Positions 15,972 to 25,260 of a stretch of DNA of 64,000 nucleotides are shown piece after piece. This DNA comes from Yuukianura sp. NJ FZ-2021 (Eukaryota). A model generated the notes under the pieces. The model was not told the origin of the DNA and ran no database searches. It saw only the letters and a program-made list of their open reading frames with translations. The position numbers were made by a program, and so were the translations under genes. The stretch is from the NCBI GenBank assembly GCA_046563655.1, contig CM102288.1, positions 2,108,001 through 2,172,000 on the forward strand, written 5' to 3'. Position 1 is the stretch's first letter. Every line of letters begins with the position of its first letter.

Positions 15972-17097
15972 TTATTCAGTGTCTTCTCCAGAAGTTGAGC
16001 TACGTCTACTAGGTGAAGGTACAACGGAAGTTTTCTTGTCTGGAGTAAGCGAATTCCGAGTGTGCCAATACTCAACGTTTTTGTCTTGAACGATTTTGGC
16101 AACTTTTCTGGACACAACTTCTTTCGTCTTGGGGCATTCCATTTTAGACCAACCAATGGGAACCATGAAGTAACCTAAAAGTTTAGACGCCGTTTACAAT
16201 AAAATTAAATCATCTCGGCAGAATTTAGTCTGGAATTTGAAAGTTGTTAGAAGCTGGATCATCAATTAAATTGTACCTGCTGAGCTGACTGATGTCGCCA
16301 CTCCGAGTCCATCTTCTGCTGTTGACATTATGAAGTCTCCATCTCCAATACCGACCTTGAGTTAAAATGAAATCTAACATCCTTGCATTACATTCAAAAA
16401 TGTTTTTAGGATTCGTTAGCTTACCACTCGTGCTAAAACGATATCACCAATACCAAAACTGGTTTCAATTTCGGCCAAATCCCTCTGGCAGTCTGTAATG
16501 TACTCGCGGCGAATAATTCCGCGTAGTGCTTCTTCTAGTTTGACGTTTCCAACATGAGTTATGAGGCAGCGACAAAGTTTTCTTGTGCGAGATGTGACTG
16601 TACAGGTAACAATGGCCATGAGCTGAGGTGAGGCAAAGGGACGATGGCCTGGACTTCTAACCACTGACACGACAGTTAACTAAAAAAAAATGAAAATCAA
16701 CACAAGAAAGTAACCAAAACCAAATATACAACGCATCTAACTTACCTCTTGGTCTGGAAATTCTTGGACTGAAATATGTCCCAAAATGGACGAATAAATT
16801 GCATTCCCAAATTCGTAAGCTCCATCTCCAGCCTCAAAGTACTCGTTAGCGACACACAGTTTCTGACCTAAAAAAAATCAACGTCATTTCATGATGTTAC
16901 TCATTCAATTCTGCACTGGAAAAAACGTAAGCGCTATTAAAATATATCAAGTAACCTGGCATGCAAATTTCTCCTTCACACAGTTCCTGTTTGTTTCGTT
17001 CAGCAGTTGACCTCTGCTGAAGCTGATTCGATACCTTTGCACCACTTTCTGGGGTTTTCACTTGGCCATCAACTTGCATTGCTGTAGAGTCTGCCAT
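15972..17097 (-). CDS. EXOSC1: Exosome complex component CSL4 (5 exons)
   Basis: ICMPGQKLC...IYSSILG N-terminus, S1 domain RGIIRREYI...SFGIGDIVLARV, C-terminal MVPIGWSKMECPKTKEVVSRKVAK; AATAAA overlaps the stop. Confidence 0.9.
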
Positions 17098-17539
17098 TTT
17101 AAAACTTACTTAATCTAAATAAGCTATATTTAGCAAACTGCCCTATTAGTTATTAAATTACAATTAAAATTAAGGATTTCACTAATCGAAATCGTTTTGT
17201 AAACAAAAACGTGCTTTCTTTTCACTTTTCATTTGCCACTTTTTTGACTTTTTATTTTGAATTGACTTTTTTGAAGATTATTTTGATTCAGGTTTGACTT
17301 TCGCGCGAAATCATTTGAACCACGAAAACACCCCGCGGGATTTTTAAATTTGACTTTTAAATTTGGAATCTTGGTTGCAGTATGACTAAAGCAGCGCCAT
17401 TGTACCCGGACAAAGCAGCCATAGTAATTTCGGCCATCTTTATTAGCCACAATTGGTGGCTACACTGTGCAGTAATTTAAGTTGCCACTTGAAGTAGAGT
17501 TAGGTTATGTTAAAGTGGCTGCTTAGGTTGCGGTCGAGG

Positions 17540-17763
17540 TAAACTTTAACGACCGTCATTGTAGCCACACAGTGTAGCCACTCCGCCATTTTTAGTGGCT
17601 ACAATGGGTGGCTACACCTGAGTGGCAACTTAAGTAGCCACTTTAACCTAACCTAACCTAGAGTGGCAACATAAGTTGCCGCAAAGTGTAGCCATCCATT
17701 GTAGCCACAAAAAATGGCGGAGTGGCTACACTGTGCGGCTACAATGACGGTCGTTAAAGTTTA
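17540..17763. mobile_element. MITE-like palindromic element with ~78-bp terminal inverted repeats and an internal (TAACC)3 tract
   Basis: TAAACTTTAACGACCGTCATTGTAGCC... is the reverse complement of ...GGCTACAATGACGGTCGTTAAAGTTTA; TA at both ends. Confidence 0.85.
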
Positions 17764-18286
17764 AAGATAAAGCGTACGTCTTGTTTACAGCAACCAAGAC
17801 AGAAATCACGACGTCGTGATTTGCTCTATTTTAAAAAGTTTTTTAGAGCACAGTGGTAAACAAAACTATTCTGGTCGGCGAAAATTAAAAAAAAATGTGC
17901 AGAACTAAAAATATTTTTTTGATTTTATTAAAAAACTTTTTTTTTTCGTTGAGACACGAAAATATTTTTATAAATATAAAAATAAAACTGTTTACAGCAC
18001 AAAATTTTGTTTTACAAAAAAAAATATCTTTTTGCCAAAAAAACTTTATTTCTTTGGAAAAATATTTCTTTTTATAATAAAAAATTTTTATTTAGGAAAT
18101 TTTTTTTTTAATTAAATAAAAATAATTTATATTTGGAGTCGTCAATGCCCCTCCATAAAGTTGTCTACTTTTTTTAAAAAAACAATCCAAAGTTGAACTA
18201 TAAAGAAGCGCCATTTGAAACTAGGTTTGGTGAAAACTATTATGATAAAATTCGTGACATTCAAAACTTTCACAAAATTGACTCAC

Positions 18287-18563
18287 CTCTACGCCTTCAT
18301 CTTCCTTTTCGATAGCCGTTAGAGACTCCGCGTCAGCCAAATTGTCAACAGCGATAGCCAAGAAGACGTTGAGCAGGATATCTGTAAAAAATTTGAGATC
18401 AAATCGAATTTTCACGAAATTTTGCGGGCTTAGCGAACTTACAGTTCCTGCAGATGAATAGGATAATGAAGTACACGCAGGCGAGAATTCCAATGGAACC
18501 AACACCGCCGTACGCCTGAATCCCTTGATACATCACAGCGTTCCAGTCTTCACCCGTCAAGAT
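18287..18563 (-). pseudogene. Captured two-exon fragment of an L-type voltage-gated Ca channel alpha1 (Cav1/Ca-alpha1D domain II pore loop and IIS6)
   Basis: Exons 18563-18443 and 18381-18287 translate [72 protein letters not shown]; no other channel exons in the window. Confidence 0.9.
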
Positions 18564-18836
18564 CTACAAAGGAAAATTTTTAATTTGTTATGCTTCAAAA
18601 TTCCGAGTTTTATATTTTTTATTTTTTTTATTTTAGGTTTTTGCAATGTCGTCATGCCACCCAGCTTTAATGCTATTTTGGCTTTCTATCCAAATGTATT
18701 TACAAACTTTTCAAACAAAGATGATTCAGTCTTCACAATTTTCTCAGCCACTACGTAAATTCTTTGAACAATTTCAACTCCAAGCAGGAACCCTGATTTT
18801 TTTTTCACGAAAGAGGTCAAGAGGTCAAACATAAAT

Positions 18837-20223
18837 ATGACTCCACTTTTTCGCGCCACTGACCGATTCACGGTCACAGCCTGGCCATGGCCCATGCTTT
18901 TGCTTGTTCTTGGATTCTACATGTTTCCTGCTCCCTCTAGAGCAGGCGAAATTAACAGCAATGAACGTTATTGGGAGTCGTAAGTACAAAGAAACGTAAT
19001 CTAAAACTGTCTTTGGCGCGAACTTTTGGTACGTTTTAAATTTCAAACATAACTCAAAATTTTGATTAATTTTTTTTTGTAATAACAGGGAATGGTACTA
19101 CACAACAAGCAACATGAAGATGTTCCCATTCTTAGTCTTCCAGGACTTCCAAACGTGCTTCGTAACACGAGATCTGTCTCTGCAGGAACTACTTATAGAT
19201 GAACCCGATGACCCTAGTAATCCAGGATTTTATGTTTCCGGGTTGGACTGGTCGGAATGGTCCATATACCTCAATGACTTTGACTTCTGGAACCGACTTC
19301 AGCTGGAAGAGGACGCCGCAGTAATCAAGTACCACAAGATAATCCATGCTGATTCACACTACGACTACATTCGCTGTGCCATTCTTATTTGGCTCGTTTT
19401 TTTCTGCCTGGTCTTTGCTCTTCATACGATCTACTTCTTCTGCCTTGGGCTTCTCATGGGAACGCCTATCCTCTGGGGCCTTCCAAAACTCTACCCATCA
19501 GTAAACGTTTACGGTCGCAAAGTCATCATTACTTGGATGGTCACGTGGAGAGAGCGCATTCGCTTTAACGACAAAGACGCCTACAACGAAATCTACCGCG
19601 ACGTTTTCTACCGCGTTCCGCTCCTGTTCCGTCGACATAGCAGTGAGAGTGAGCCCGAAGAGGTGCGGAACTTGCTGGAGCCGTACGAGACCTACGTTGA
19701 ACCGGATGACGAAATGGTGGAACTGCTGGACGAAAGTTTGTCAGATATGGAACTGGATGCGGAGTTGTGGGCCGCCGTGCCACTGCTGGATGGTGGCGAA
19801 CGCTATGAAAAGACGCGTCTTCAAAAGGAAGAAGAAACTGTTCAGCAAATGATGGAAATGATGGAAATGGATCCACATCGGAAACTGAAGGAAGAAGTTT
19901 ACCGTGAACGAATGGAGGCAGATGCTGCTGAGGAACTGGCACGTCTCGGAGCCGAAGCTGTCGCATATCGAGATGAAATGGAACGACAGGAACTGATGAT
20001 GCGAAGGAAGAAACGGAAAATGGTGTACGACTTCGTGGGACGACGGACTGGTTCGTCTTCGTCTTCGGAGTCAGCTCCGTCGGTAGATGAGGATCGAGAA
20101 GTCCGAATGGCTTACTACAGAGAGGCGTTTGAGAGGAAGAAACGTAAGCAAAAACTTACTCCTAAGAAGCGTAAATACTTCTTGAGAACTAAGGATCCCA
20201 TTATCATTTGGAGACAGCGGTAA
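18837..20223 (+). CDS. Orphan membrane protein (~425 aa, 2 exons): signal peptide, ectodomain, TM region, acidic helical region and basic tail
   Basis: Exon 18837-18979 (MTPLFRATDRFTVTAWPWPMLLLVLGFYMFPAPSRAG...) with phase-2 GTAAGT donor splices in frame at AACAG|19089 to the 369-aa ORF; AATAAA near 20315. Confidence 0.7.
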
Positions 20224-20989
20224 ACTTCTGGACAGCTAGCAACTAAACGTTAAAAGTCTAAACTTAGCCTAACATTATGGCTTCCTAATAGACGCATTGG
20301 TACAATACCAAACGAATAAAAAAAATGCTGTCAATAAAGCAAATGATTTGGTAAATTTTATCATAATAGTTTTCACAGTTTTCACCAAACCTAGTTTCAA
20401 ATGGCGCTTCTTTATAGTTCAACTTTGGATTGCTTTTTTAAAAAAAGTGGACAACTTTATGGAGGGGCAGAATGGAGGGGCATAAGAACGCCTTTTTTTC
20501 AATTAAATAAAAATAATTTATATTTGGAGTCGTCAATGCCCCTCCATAAATTGTGGTCGTAATCCACAATTCTTACGACAACCGAACGTTTTGCCAAGAA
20601 AAATTGGTTTTGTTTTTGTCTGACACGTGCTATGCACGAGTCAATCAGTAACTTTTCAAATTTCAATTTGTCAATAATTGTTAGATTAATTAATTAGAAC
20701 CATAGTTAAATAGCTACTTAGCTTAACTTGGCTACTTAGCCGCATTTCATTAACACTTTGCATTTACATACGGCCGTGCTAGCTACGACTTACGAGGATA
20801 GCCTGCTTCACTTACAGTTACAAGAAGGAAAAGCCTTACGAAAGCCAAACGTTCTTTCGATTACGGTAACTACTATATACTCCGAATTTTGAAATCTGTT
20901 ATCAATTGGTTATTCACAAATCGTTAAATGAGAATGTAGTAATATTTCTGTTTCTGTCACATGTTTCCAGAGAGCGAGAATTGTAAGTC

Positions 20990-23900
20990 ATGGATCTCTT
21001 TGGGTCAGACGAATTGTTCAATATCTTTGAAGCTGATCAGTTGACAACCAGTCGCCCAGGGAAGAGGAAGCTGGAGGATGTTGTAGAATCGTCCACGAAA
21101 ACTGTTAAGAAGAAATCCAAGCTCAAGAACAACAAACCAAAGCCGGACGCGATCGGGAAAACAGGCGTACCGATATCAAACGAAGCAGAATCATCTCAAG
21201 TTGCAGATACAGAAGAGGTAGAAGCAGGAGAGCTTGAAGAAGTTGAACTTGATTCTAATTCCGAATCTGAAGTCGATTCAGATTCAAGTTCTAAAGAAGA
21301 TGAACCAGTGGAGCAGGAATCTGAGGAACCTGACGTTATCACAATTGACGATGAAGATGATCGAATGGAAACACACCCCGTTTCTTCTACTTCCATTTCT
21401 GTGGTTCAAGTAAAAACCGAAATAGTAGTAGAAACACCGTCTACTTCTACAGCAAATGCGGAAGAAAGTTCAAGTAAAACGAATGACCCCGAACCAAATA
21501 AGACAGATGAAGCAGCAGTTCCACCTGCAGATGACGACGACGACGAAGAGGACGAAACTGAAACTAGAACCGAAGACCTTACCGCTCTGCAGAAATTTTT
21601 GCCACAAGTTGAAGTCAAGACGCTGGAAACTCCAGAAGGGTCTGGATGTACTCATGTTGTCACTACCCCAATTGACAACTTCTACTACATTCCTCTTCAT
21701 CCAATTGACAAGCCAGTCAAAACTTATCCCTTCAAGCTGGATTTGTTCCAAGATCGAGCAGTTCAGTGTGTTGACAACTACCAGTCTGTGTTGGTCTCGG
21801 CTCATACTTCCGCTGGCAAAACGGTGGTAGCTGAGTAAGTTTTTTCGAAAATATAATTGATATTCCAACATTTTTCACCAAGATCAAGTGTTTTCTGTTT
21901 GAATTTTTTCATAGATATGCCATTGCCAAAGGATTGAAAGATAACCAAAGAGTCATCTACACCACTCCTATCAAAGCACTCAGCAATCAAAAGTATCGCG
22001 AATTTTATGAAGAATTTAAAGATGTTGGACTCATTACTGGAGATGTCACGATTAATCCCTCTGCGGGATGCCTCATCATGACTACTGAGGTAGGTTATCC
22101 ACAAAGACTTAAGTTAACTAACTTAAGGTTTTAATTACTCAAGCGTTTCATTTTCATAGATTTTGAGGAATATGCTGTATCGAGGTTCAGAAATTATGAG
22201 AGAGGTGGGATGGGTAGTGTTTGATGAAATTCATTACATGCGAGACAAGGAACGAGGCGTTGTTTGGGAAGAAACGATTATTTTGTTACCTCAAAAGACA
22301 CACTATGTCTTCCTGTCGGCTACAATCCCAAATGCTGTTCAGTTTGCCCAGTGGATAACGCATCTTCATCGTCAACCTTGCAATGTTATCCATACCGACT
22401 ACCGTCCAGTTCCTTTGCATCATTACATCTACCCCGTCGGAGCTGATGGAATTCATCTTATTGTGGATGATTGTGTAAGTTACTAATATTTAGCATGAAA
22501 CAGATCATAGCAGATCATAGGTTTACATGATTTTTGATTTTTCAGGGTAACTTTCGTGAAGATGCTTTCAATACAGCAATGGGAATGTTGAAACCGGAAG
22601 CTGGCGGGAGTCGAGGCAGACGAGGCCAACCAGCCCGTTTTGGCCAGAAGGGAAAAGGAGGCGGTGGTGGAGAAGAATCTCCGTGTCAAAAGGTCATCAA
22701 AATGGCCATGGAGAATGACTTGTCTCCAGTTATATGCTTCAGTTTCAGTCGCAAGGACTGCGAAAACTATGCACTTCAACTCTCCAAATTGGACTTCAAC
22801 TCAGGTTTTATGAATTTTTCAATTTGTTTGTGTAAAACACGTTGATTTTATTTTACTAATTGACGGTGTGTTTATATTTAGCGCAAGACAAGAACATGGT
22901 GACAGAAGTCTTCCAGAATGCAGTGGATGTTTTGAGTAAAGAGGATCAGAAGTTGCCTCAAGTCGAAAGTTTGTTGCCTATTTTGAAACGAGGAATTGGA
23001 ATCCATCATGGAGGTAAACCAACCGAAATTTTAAAACGAAACGAAATTCATTATTTCAGTATTTTTCATTTTTTCAGAATCTTATTTTTAAAATTGAATT
23101 TCAGGTCTCCTCCCACTTCTCAAAGAAACAATTGAGATTCTCTTCTCAGAAGGTCTCATCAAAGTACTGTTTGCCACTGAAACGTTTGCAATGGGACTCA
23201 ACATGCCAGCAAGAACCGTAATGTTTACTGGAATGAGAAAGTTTGATGGAAAAGACTATCGATGGGTAAGAATGCAAGTTATCAACTCACAGTCTCTGTC
23301 AAGATCAATACTCTCAATATTTTTTTTCTTTTTAGATCACTTCTGGAGAGTACATTCAAATGTCTGGACGAGCTGGACGACGAGGAATTGATGACAAAGG
23401 AATAACTATTACAATGATGGATGAGAAAATTACTCCAACTGTGGGTCGAAATCTGCTCAAAGGAGCAGCAGATCCAATCAACTCAGCTTTCCATCTTACG
23501 TACAACATGGTCCTCAATTTGATGCGAGTGGAGGAAATCAATCCAGAGTTTATGATGGAACGCAGTTTCTTTCAATTTCAAAACTACTCTTCCATACCCG
23601 GCGTCTGTGAGAGTATGTACAACTCAAGAGATTTTTCAAATGTGGTTTTGGAGAACTGTATACCTCAATTTGTGTTTTCTAGAATTGATGAAAGCGGAGA
23701 AAGAGTACAAGGAAATGGAAGTTCCTCGTGAAAAAGAAGTCGCTTCTTATTATCGATTACGACAACATTTGACCAAACTTGGGAAAGAATTCAAGGAATT
23801 CTTAACAAAACCGAAATATATCGTGCCGTTTCTGCAGCCTGGAAGAATGGTCCAAGTAAGCTTAATTCAAAAAACGAAAATGAAAAGTTTTCTAAGTTTC

Positions 23901-25260
23901 TTGTTTTTTTAAGTACATGTACGTTTAAAAATTCGAATTGCTGTGTCCGATCAGGTGACAACAGGAGTTTTGGAATTTGGGTGGGGAGCAGTAGTGGCTT
24001 TTCGACGTCAAGATAACCCCAAGGAGAATCCGATGACCCACAGTGACCCTGTGTACGTCGTCGATGTCCTCTTACACGTTTCAAGTGAAACAAAAGATGT
24101 CAAGTCAACAAGTGACATCCGCCCGGCCACTTCCGATAAACCATCAGAAATGCGAATTGTTCCAGTGTTCTTAGGTGCAATTGACAAAGTGAGTCAAGTG
24201 AGACTTTACTTATCCCAAGACCTGCGATCCGCCGAACGACGAATGGCAGTACTTCTGAGCATAAACGAAGTGAAGAGACGATTCCCCGATGGTATTCCAA
24301 TTCTAGACCCCATCAATGATCTCAAAATCAAGGATCCAGAGTTCAAGAGAATCGTGAAGAAGATCACAAATTATGAAACATCGTTACATGCCCATCCTCT
24401 GCACAATGACAAACAGACACCGGAACTCTACAACTTGTATCTCAAGAAAGTGGATGTTCATGCAAAGGTGGAAGATGCAAAGAGTGAACTCAAGAAGGCC
24501 AAGTCACTATTACAAATGGATGAATTGAAGTGTCGGAAGAGAGTGCTGCGTCGTTTGGGCTATTCTGCTGGGGATGATGTGATTCAAATCAAAGGCCGAG
24601 TTGCGTGTGAGCTGACGAGTGCTGATGAGCTGCTGCTTACGGAAATGATCTTCAATGGAGTCTTCATTGATCTTGATGTGCCACAGACAGTGGCTCTCCT
24701 CAGTTGTCTCGTTTGCGACGAAAAGAGCAACGAAGTGCCGAAATTGTCAGAAGATCTCTCCGGAGCTTTAAAAATGATGCAGGTTAGTCCTTGATTCGAA
24801 GAATTTGAATATCTTAAGTGTTCTAAAGGTCATGTGATGACAGATTTTTCATTTAATTTTTAGGACATCGCTAGGCAAATCGCAAAAGTTAGCAAGGAGT
24901 GCAAAATGGACACAGACGAAGACGAGTACGTGGAACGATTCAAACCGTTTTTGATGGATGTCGTCTACGGATGGGCGAAAGGAGCCACGTTTTCGGATAT
25001 TTGTGCTATGACTGACATTTTTGAAGGTTTGTGTTTTGATTCCAAAGTTGCAACTTACGAGATTCAAGAAAGTTAGCTAATGAATGTTGAGTTTTCTTTT
25101 AGGTGGCATCATTCGGTGTATGAGGAGACTGGAAGAACTGTTGCGTCAAATGTCGCTGGCAGCCAAGGTCATTGGGAATAAGGAATTGGAAGAGAAGTTC
25201 AACTCGGGTGTGAAAATGATCAAAAGAGACATCGTCTTTGCTGCAAGCTTGTATCTGTGA
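20990..25260 (+). CDS. MTREX: Exosome RNA helicase MTR4 (SKIV2L2)
   Basis: [36 protein letters not shown] motifs; KOW arch; C-terminal [12 protein letters not shown]. Confidence 0.96.

What the first reader, a model, noticed from the sequence alone, without database searches (positions are those of the whole stretch)
18287..18563. Captured Cav1 calcium-channel pore exons, antisense inside the element
Seen: two consecutive exons with their intron and splice sites encode the domain II selectivity filter (TGEDW) and IIS6 ([12 protein letters not shown]). They lie directly against the left TIR, with no other channel exons nearby. The retained intron indicates DNA-level capture, not retroposition. 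The conserved ICGN reads ICRN, a single-base change suggesting recent capture with early decay. Inference: transcription through the element could yield antisense or small RNAs against the parent channel gene.
Basis: partly seen in the sequence, partly recalled or inferred. Interest (0 to 1): 0.72.

Follow-up and report, generated by a model that had tools for sequence, protein, structure and literature searches.

The report
Stray calcium-channel exon pair by inverted repeat
Two exons and an intron of an L-type calcium-channel gene were copied as DNA into a gap between unrelated genes, next to an inverted repeat, and are most likely a young, non-working leftover rather than a regulator.

Summary
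On the minus strand, exon A (18443-18563), a 61-nt GT..AG intron and exon B (18287-18381) encode 72 open codons of a Cav1 alpha-1 subunit: the domain II TGEDW filter through IIS6. tblastn with 4 full-length arthropod Cav1 proteins finds only these two exons in 64 kb (E about 1e-27). The window is gene-dense with unrelated genes, so this is an isolated DNA-level fragment, not part of a long gene.

It lies 34 nt inside the left arm of a 107/116-nt inverted repeat (18146-18252 and 20354-20469). ICRN is real and unique: 0 of 120 relatives carry R.

The transposon reading is only partly supported. There is no target-site duplication, no transposase and no second copy seen. An odd 63-nt direct repeat also flanks the unit. 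The unit also holds an orphan gene under purifying selection: 10 of 11 listed variants are synonymous.

The best fit is a single-copy Pack-TIR-like gap-filling or template-switch duplicate, with the channel exons as a passenger. "Recent capture" could not be dated because no parent locus was available. The antisense or small-RNA idea is untested because no RNA run was listed. It is a modestly interesting new member of a known kind.

The parts
18443..18563 (-). Cav1 exon A: domain II pore loop (TGEDW) and first half of IIS6. It ends in ICRN plus the first base of a Tyr codon. An acceptor TTGTAG lies just upstream at 18564-18569.
18382..18442 (-). Retained 61-nt phase-1 intron, GTAAGT...ACAG (U2-like). 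It sits at the position that carries a U12-like 5' splice site at 32 of 46 environmental Cav places.
18287..18381 (-). Cav1 exon B: second half of IIS6 ([12 protein letters not shown]) and the start of the II-III linker. It is followed by a donor-like GTGAGT at 18281-18286.
18146..18252 (.). Left arm of the inverted repeat. Its outer end starts with TGCCCCTCCAT.
20354..20469 (.). Right arm of the inverted repeat. It carries a 9-nt tandem duplication relative to the left arm. A second copy of the terminal 11-mer follows at 20472-20482.
18102..18164 (+). Left copy of a 63-nt direct repeat (96.8% identical to 20493-20554). It overlaps the first 19 nt of the left arm.
20493..20554 (+). Right copy of the 63-nt direct repeat, just outside the right arm.
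18837..20223 (+). Orphan two-exon gene inside the repeat pair. The model is inferred from sequence: exon 1 18837-18979, intron, exon 2 19089-20223, about 425 aa. It has hydrophobic segments and a charged helical C-terminal half. There are no homologues, but the polymorphism is almost all synonymous.

Best explanation
The two exons are a partial DNA-level duplicate of the host's own L-type calcium-channel alpha-1 gene (Cav1, the Ca-alpha1D type). The piece runs from the splice acceptor through exon, intron and exon.

It lies in the roughly 3.9-kb divergent intergenic region between an EXOSC1-like gene and MTR4. There it sits as passenger DNA 34 nt inside one arm of a single-copy 107/116-nt inverted-repeat pair. 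The same pair also encloses a functional orphan gene.

The most likely origin (inferred, not shown) is repair-associated copying. A break or gap at a foldback or MITE-like inverted repeat was filled by template switching to ectopic host DNA. This is the route proposed for single-copy Pack-TIRs in animals.

The fragment cannot make a channel: it has 72 of about 1,900 codons. It carries an Arg at an otherwise invariant Gly of IIS6. I take it to be a young, non-functional pseudo-exon pair. No regulatory role has been demonstrated.
For: Shown:
- Channel identity and isolation.
- Unrelated genes on both sides: ELO, COX16, an E2 enzyme and EXOSC1 to the left; MTR4, GMC oxidoreductase, ATP-citrate lyase and integrin beta to the right.
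- In true Cav loci the preceding exon lies within about 0.1-1.8 kb (30 of the 80 loci examined).
- The intron is retained at the conserved phase-1 site.
- R occurs at a position where 118 of 120 hits and all 46 motif places in the fetched loci have G.
- The inverted repeat and its terminal 11-mer: 4 exact copies, all at repeat ends, against a chance expectation of 0.34.
- Local continuity is seen in contigs of two studies.
- Exon GC3 is 0.61, against 0.34 in the intron and 0.31-0.35 in the flanks. This points to little neutral decay so far.

Literature: Pack-TIRs exist in animals, and single-copy ones are attributed to gap filling (PMC8277862; abstract and sections 7-9 read).
Against: - There is no target-site duplication at the arm ends, and the arms match no repeat family that I could detect. 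So the transposon-relic part of the story is unproven.
- The 63-nt direct repeat overlapping one arm is not explained by simple gap filling.
- The parent locus was not seen, so neither direction nor age of the copy is measured.
- In a variant haplotype contig (X3 record 20), 5 of the 7 listed differences fall in the 61-nt intron and 1 falls in 120 exonic nt. This could mean constraint on the exons. Fisher p is 0.12 on the listed sites, and ranges from 0.036 to 0.50 depending on where the 2 unlisted differences lie.
- In the paper, 56.9% of Pack-TIRs lie within 15 kb of their parent. Here no parent lies within 18 kb on the left or 45 kb on the right.
Confidence: 0.55

Rival explanations
1. A mobile non-autonomous TIR transposon captured the exons recently. 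Transcription through it yields antisense or small RNAs that act on the parent channel gene.
For: Long inverted repeats with a repeated terminal 11-mer. The host fragment lies next to an arm. The coding frame and composition are almost undecayed.
Against: There is no TSD, no other copy in the window, and no sign of a high-copy family at the arms (weak). The exons lie in the 2.1-kb loop, not in the stem that would form dsRNA. The resident gene's inferred start (18837) lies beyond the exons and on the other strand. No RNA data exist. Nucleotide identity to the parent is unknown.
Confidence: 0.1
2. The exons are functional. They have been exapted into a new or chimeric transcript, or into a small pore-loop/S6 protein, and are kept by selection.
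For: The frame is open over 72 codons. Acceptor, intron and donor-like signals are intact. Only one atypical residue is present. Listed haplotype differences concentrate in the intron. GC3 is high. A functional gene 270 nt away on the other strand could share a bidirectional promoter.
Against: There is no start codon or upstream exon in evidence, and no RNA data. The Gly-to-Arg change hits an invariant S6 position. The polymorphism test is not significant on the listed sites (p 0.12). A young neutral copy gives the same picture.
Confidence: 0.12
3. No transposon is involved. A complex repair or replication event, with template switches, copied the channel piece here. The same event created the inverted and direct repeats.
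For: The right-hand 200 nt (20354-20554) consist entirely of an inverted copy of 18146-18252, a 13-nt re-copy of its end, 10 nt plus a T run, and a direct copy of 18102-18164. There is no TSD, and the unit is single copy.
Against: The exact terminal 11-mer is repeated 4 times at the ends. The region is already a nest of MITE-like repeats. Both points fit a transposon-derived repeat. The two models differ only in the origin of the arms.
Confidence: 0.18
4. An assembly chimera joined a channel contig to unrelated sequence.
For: No contig bridges the arm boundaries with 31 letters on both sides. The best-holding runs may be the assembly's own data.
Against: The junction of exon A with the upstream non-channel DNA is spanned in two studies (X1 record 6, X2 record 14, X4 record 29). 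X1 record 6 runs from exon B into the orphan gene with 0 differences. X3 record 20 runs from 30 nt inside the left arm to exon A.
Confidence: 0.03

Closest known systems
Single-copy Pack-TIRs of animals (Tan et al. 2021, PMC8277862; abstract and sections 7-9 read, supplements not seen)
   Same: Host non-TE DNA lies between terminal inverted repeats. The unit is single copy and lacks a transposase. Its origin is plausibly repair or gap filling rather than transposition.
   Different: The arms here match no identified TE consensus or multicopy family, and no TSD is present. The parent is not within the window, whereas 56.9% of theirs lie within 15 kb. The paper's screen found no Pack-TIR in insect reference genomes. 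The filler here also includes an apparently functional orphan gene.
Ssk-FB4 of Drosophila melanogaster, a foldback-type Pack element (same paper, section 9)
   Same: Long inverted repeats with rearranged, tandemly duplicated ends enclose a nearly whole gene that evolves as a protein-coding gene.
   Different: Ssk-FB4 is multicopy with distinct 9-10-bp TSDs and arms of about 700 bp, and its parent gene is known. None of this is shown here.
Pack-MULEs of plants (recalled; also described in the abstracts of PMC8277862 and PMC5861414, the latter seen only in the search listing)
   Same: Genomic fragments, with their introns, sit between long TIRs. They are often fragments of genes.
   Different: Pack-MULEs belong to the Mutator superfamily, with 9-11-bp TSDs and many copies. 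Neither feature is seen here, and the host is an animal.
Turmoil-1 transduplication in C. elegans (Sela et al. 2008, PMC2572040; abstract read)
   Same: A DNA transposon in an invertebrate carries fragments of host protein-coding genes.
   Different: In Turmoil-1 the fragments lie within the inverted terminal repeats themselves, and the element is multicopy. Here the fragment lies inside the loop, next to an arm.

Membership tests
Cav1 (L-type) voltage-gated calcium-channel alpha-1 subunit | Domain II pore-loop selectivity motif TGEDW followed by IIS6 ([25 protein letters not shown]) | tested here: met
   The motif and S6 are present, with 39 of 40 exon-A residues among those common in the 120 relatives. 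The exception is Arg in place of the invariant Gly.
Cav1 (L-type) voltage-gated calcium-channel alpha-1 subunit | Closest relatives are L-type (Ca-alpha1D, 'muscle calcium channel alpha-1') rather than other channel classes | tested here: met
   Every hit that carries a channel name from its source is labelled L-type or alpha-1D. Many of the 120 listed carry no name or only 'hypothetical/unnamed', and no formal tree was built.
Cav1 (L-type) voltage-gated calcium-channel alpha-1 subunit | A complete four-domain coding gene | tested here: not met
   Only residues of about 637-708 of a roughly 1,985-aa reference are present in 64 kb, so this is a fragment and not a gene.
Pack-TIR / transduplicating TIR DNA transposon | Terminal inverted repeats bounding the unit | tested here: met
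   Arms of 107 and 116 nt, 90.5% overall, with blocks of 98% and 100%.
Pack-TIR / transduplicating TIR DNA transposon | Target-site duplication directly flanking the arms | tested here: not met
   The flanks differ. Instead, a 63-nt direct repeat overlaps the left arm.
Pack-TIR / transduplicating TIR DNA transposon | Arms belong to a recognisable TIR transposon family (consensus or other copies) | tested here: inconclusive
   There is no other copy in the window. Contig depth at the left arm is 1.4-3.2 times single copy (and the tool warns this is not a copy number). No eukaryotic TE library or whole genome was available.
Pack-TIR / transduplicating TIR DNA transposon | Internal sequence copied from a parental host locus that still exists elsewhere | not testable with these tools
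   Host origin is inferred from homology only. No genome is held, and the metagenome scan found no same-species locus (best 83% aa).
Processed pseudogene / retrocopy | Loss of introns, and a poly(A) tail | tested here: not met
   The intron is retained at the conserved position, and the flanking acceptor is retained.

The most novel reading that the evidence does not exclude
The inverted-repeat unit is a young Pack-TIR-type cassette in a springtail-like hexapod. It has given rise to a selected orphan gene. In it, the calcium-channel pore/IIS6 exons are kept under constraint because they are transcribed. That could be from a promoter shared with the orphan gene, or from the flanking repeats on the other strand. 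The product would be a small pore-loop/S6 peptide or an RNA that modulates the parent Cav1 gene.
Probability: 0.07. Interest if true: 0.7.

Novelty: new member of a known kind. Interest (0 to 1): 0.3.

Why it matters
If the repair-copy reading is right, this is a clean animal example of inverted repeats seeding DNA-level exon duplication in a compact genome. It comes from a lineage where such cases are barely catalogued: the 2021 survey found none in insect reference genomes. The copy still carries intact splice signals, so it is raw material for exon shuffling.

It also comes with a practical warning. Isolated, well-preserved ion-channel exons like this can be mis-annotated as channel genes.

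It does not, on present evidence, bear on channel regulation.

Tried and rejected
- Whole genome: not held. The parent locus, other copies of the arms, and exon-versus-intron divergence therefore could not be measured.
- RNA: no RNA holder was listed, so nothing can be said on expression, strand or small RNAs.
- Parent locus in the runs: laying contigs at 80% likeness showed no second locus over the exons in X1. The bin 18368-18488 has depth 47.0, equal to the one contig there. Contigs, holes and the filter for human-like conserved sequence make this no evidence either way.
- X4 has no cover over 18247-18488. This is no evidence.
- Metagenome scan with the 54-aa reading of exon A: 132 relatives were found and 80 kept, the best at 83% aa. 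None was from the same species. They were used only as controls for gene structure.
- Nested-gene idea, that the orphan gene and the exons were copied together from a Cav1 intron. I looked at the intron before exon A in 8 of the 80 loci. The longest ORF was 161 aa. I did not align any of these ORFs to the orphan protein. There is no support, and the taxa are distant.
- Orphan protein: no Pfam match; 0 hits among 4,142 word candidates; 0 hits in 1.84 billion representatives; no usable atlas hit. The single-sequence AlphaFold2 model was poor (mean pLDDT 53.9, pTM 0.23), so no fold search was run.
- TSD search at several possible arm ends found none.
- Earlier notes of this scan returned nothing.
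- A long gene with huge introns was rejected, because unrelated genes on both strands fill the window.
- A retrocopy was rejected because the intron is retained.

Full report
**What is there.**
On the minus strand the sequence reads as follows:
- an acceptor, TTGTAG, at 18564-18569;
- exon A, 18443-18563;
- a 61-nt GTAAGT...ACAG intron, 18382-18442, which splits a Tyr codon in phase 1;
- exon B, 18287-18381;
- GTGAGT at 18281-18286.

The two exons give 72 open codons. They run from the domain II pore loop (TGEDW) through IIS6 ([12 protein letters not shown]) into the first residues of the II-III linker.

A word-indexed search of 5.8 billion proteins returned 742 hits at E <= 0.001. Every listed hit that carries a channel name is an L-type (Ca-alpha1D, 'muscle calcium channel alpha-1') protein. 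These are mostly from insects, and the other listed hits are unnamed.

I ran tblastn with four of those proteins (three insects and one ostracod). It gave E 6e-26 to 5e-28, with 87.5-90% identity on exon A and 85-96% on exon B. No other channel match in the 64 kb had E below 0.9. The observation and its coordinates are therefore confirmed.

**Is it part of a real channel gene?**
No. The window is compact and full of unrelated genes:
- Left side: ELO, COX16, an E2 enzyme, and an EXOSC1-like gene on the minus strand ending near 17100.
- Right side: MTR4 from about 20990 to 25257 on the plus strand, a GMC oxidoreductase, ATP-citrate lyase and integrin beta.

As a control I fetched 80 environmental Cav loci and mapped a reference channel onto 30 of them. 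Where the contig allows, the preceding exon lies about 0.1-1.8 kb upstream of exon A. Here nothing lies in the 45 kb upstream.

The host is probably a springtail-like hexapod without annotated proteins. Its MTR4 fragment is 62% identical to a collembolan protein and 50-56% identical to everything else listed.

**DNA-level copy.**
I found the motif pattern at 46 places in the 80 loci. At those places:
- 32 have an intron at exactly this position with a U12-like 5' splice site;
- 3 have another GT intron;
- 10 have no intron;
- 1 runs off its contig.

The window's intron is at the same site but is U2-like. Retention of this intron and of the upstream acceptor excludes retroposition.

**ICRN.**
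118 of 120 hits read ICGN, none reads R, and the other 2 of 120 are out of register. All 46 places read G. Every other exon-A residue is one that is common among relatives.

The Gly codons at those 46 places are GGT 21, GGC 12, GGA 11 and GGG 2. AGG is therefore a single step only if the unseen parent uses GGG.

**The 'element'.**
The inverted arms lie at 18146-18252 and 20354-20469. They align over 116 columns at 90.5%. The only gap is a 9-nt tandem duplication in the right arm. Exon B ends 34 nt from the left arm.

The terminal 11-mer TGCCCCTCCAT occurs exactly four times in the window, all at these ends. Chance expectation is 0.34.

Several things argue against a plain transposon:
- There is no target-site duplication.
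- The right side carries a second copy of the 11-mer.
- After 10 nt and a T run, the right side also carries a 63-nt direct copy of 18102-18164. That segment includes the first 19 nt of the left arm.
- No ORF of at least 120 codons in the window has a transposase domain.
- No other copy of the arms is in the window.

Contig depth at the left arm is 1.4-3.2 times the single-copy level. The foldback MITE at 17531-17763 reaches about 100 times. The tool warns that contig depth is not a copy number, so this is only a hint that the unit is single copy.

**What else is inside.**
A plus-strand gene fills most of the unit. Its model, inferred from sequence, is exon 1 at 18837-18979 and exon 2 at 19089-20223, about 425 aa.

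It has no detectable homologue:
- no Pfam match;
- 0 hits in the word-indexed search;
- 0 hits in 1.84 billion representatives;
- no usable atlas hit.

Its single-sequence AlphaFold2 model is poor, at pLDDT 53.9.

It nevertheless looks functional. Of the 11 variant positions that one search lists inside it, 10 are synonymous and 1 is Asp-to-Glu. Ten of the 11 are third codon positions, with a binomial p of 1.3e-4. One search lists only the best-supported variants; 106 others across the 3.6 kb were not shown.

**Assembly.**
Contigs from two studies span the junction between exon A and the non-channel DNA upstream: X1 record 6, X2 record 14 and X4 record 29. X1 record 6 runs from exon B through the intron and exon A into the orphan gene without a difference.

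A variant contig (X3 record 20, 18223-18467) reaches 30 nt into the left arm. That is one letter short of the tool's bridging rule. The arm boundaries themselves are not bridged.

The best-holding runs may be the assembly's own data. Only X4 is from another study.

**Age and constraint.**
Exon GC3 is 0.61. The intron has GC 0.34 and the flanks 0.31-0.35. The frame and splice signals are intact, and only one residue is aberrant. This fits a young neutral copy or a constrained one.

In the variant haplotype, 5 of the 7 listed differences lie in the 61-nt intron, 1 in 120 exonic nt and 1 in the flank. Two further differences are unlisted. Fisher p is 0.12 on the listed sites, and ranges from 0.036 to 0.50 over the possible placements of the two unlisted ones. 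I treat this as a hint only.

**Mechanism and comparison.**
The closest described class is the animal Pack-TIR. Tan et al. 2021 (PMC8277862; abstract and sections 7-9 read, supplements not seen) reported the following:
- 370 cases in 100 genomes;
- none in insect reference genomes;
- 98.6% single copy;
- single-copy cases attributed to transposition-independent gap filling with microhomology;
- the multicopy foldback case Ssk-FB4 attributed to fork stalling and template switching.

The present unit shares several features with that class: inverted arms, host filler, no transposase and a single copy. It fails the TSD test, and its arms cannot be assigned to a family.

The composite right end (inverted copy, re-copied tip, then direct copy) looks like serial template switching. 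I therefore favour a repair-copy origin, at 0.55. Whether the arms derive from a transposon remains an open sub-question.

The antisense or small-RNA inference has no support. The exons are in the loop of the repeat, not the stem. The resident gene starts beyond them on the other strand. No RNA run was listed.

**Verdict.**
- Observation: confirmed.
- Interpretation: partly supported.
- Kind: a new member of a known kind, of modest interest.

Noticed in passing
window 17531-17763: A foldback MITE with 78-nt arms at 96% complementarity, 68 nt apart. In all four runs it reaches about 100 times the single-copy contig depth, with many joints and loose ends at 17532-17546 and 17755-17763. It is a very abundant repeat family in this organism.
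   Followed up: partly
window 17884-18138: An AT-rich repeat with weak inverted ends. It shows about 5-6 times the contig depth in X1, and diverged copies elsewhere stop at about 18133-18138, just before the left arm. Its last roughly 37 nt (18102-18138) are part of the 63-nt direct repeat.
   Followed up: partly
window 18837-20223 (+): An orphan two-exon gene of about 425 aa, with hydrophobic segments and a charged helical C-terminal half. It has no homologue in any searched library, yet 10 of 11 listed variants are synonymous.
   Followed up: yes
window 15972-17109 (-) and 20987-25257 (+): An EXOSC1/CSL4-like gene and the MTR4 helicase gene lie head to head. Both are RNA-exosome components. 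The repeat nest and the inverted-repeat unit sit in their shared 3.9-kb upstream region.
   Followed up: partly
L001-L080 (environmental Cav loci) compared with window 18382-18442: The intron after ICGN carries a U12-like 5' splice site (T|RTATCYT) at 32 of 46 places with the motif. It is absent at 10 and is another GT type at 3. The window's copy is U2-like, which suggests a minor-to-major intron conversion in this lineage.
   Followed up: partly
P0001 (database protein): A stick-insect protein model contains the pore-loop exon four times in tandem. It looks like an annotation or assembly artefact, or tandem alternative exons.
   Followed up: no
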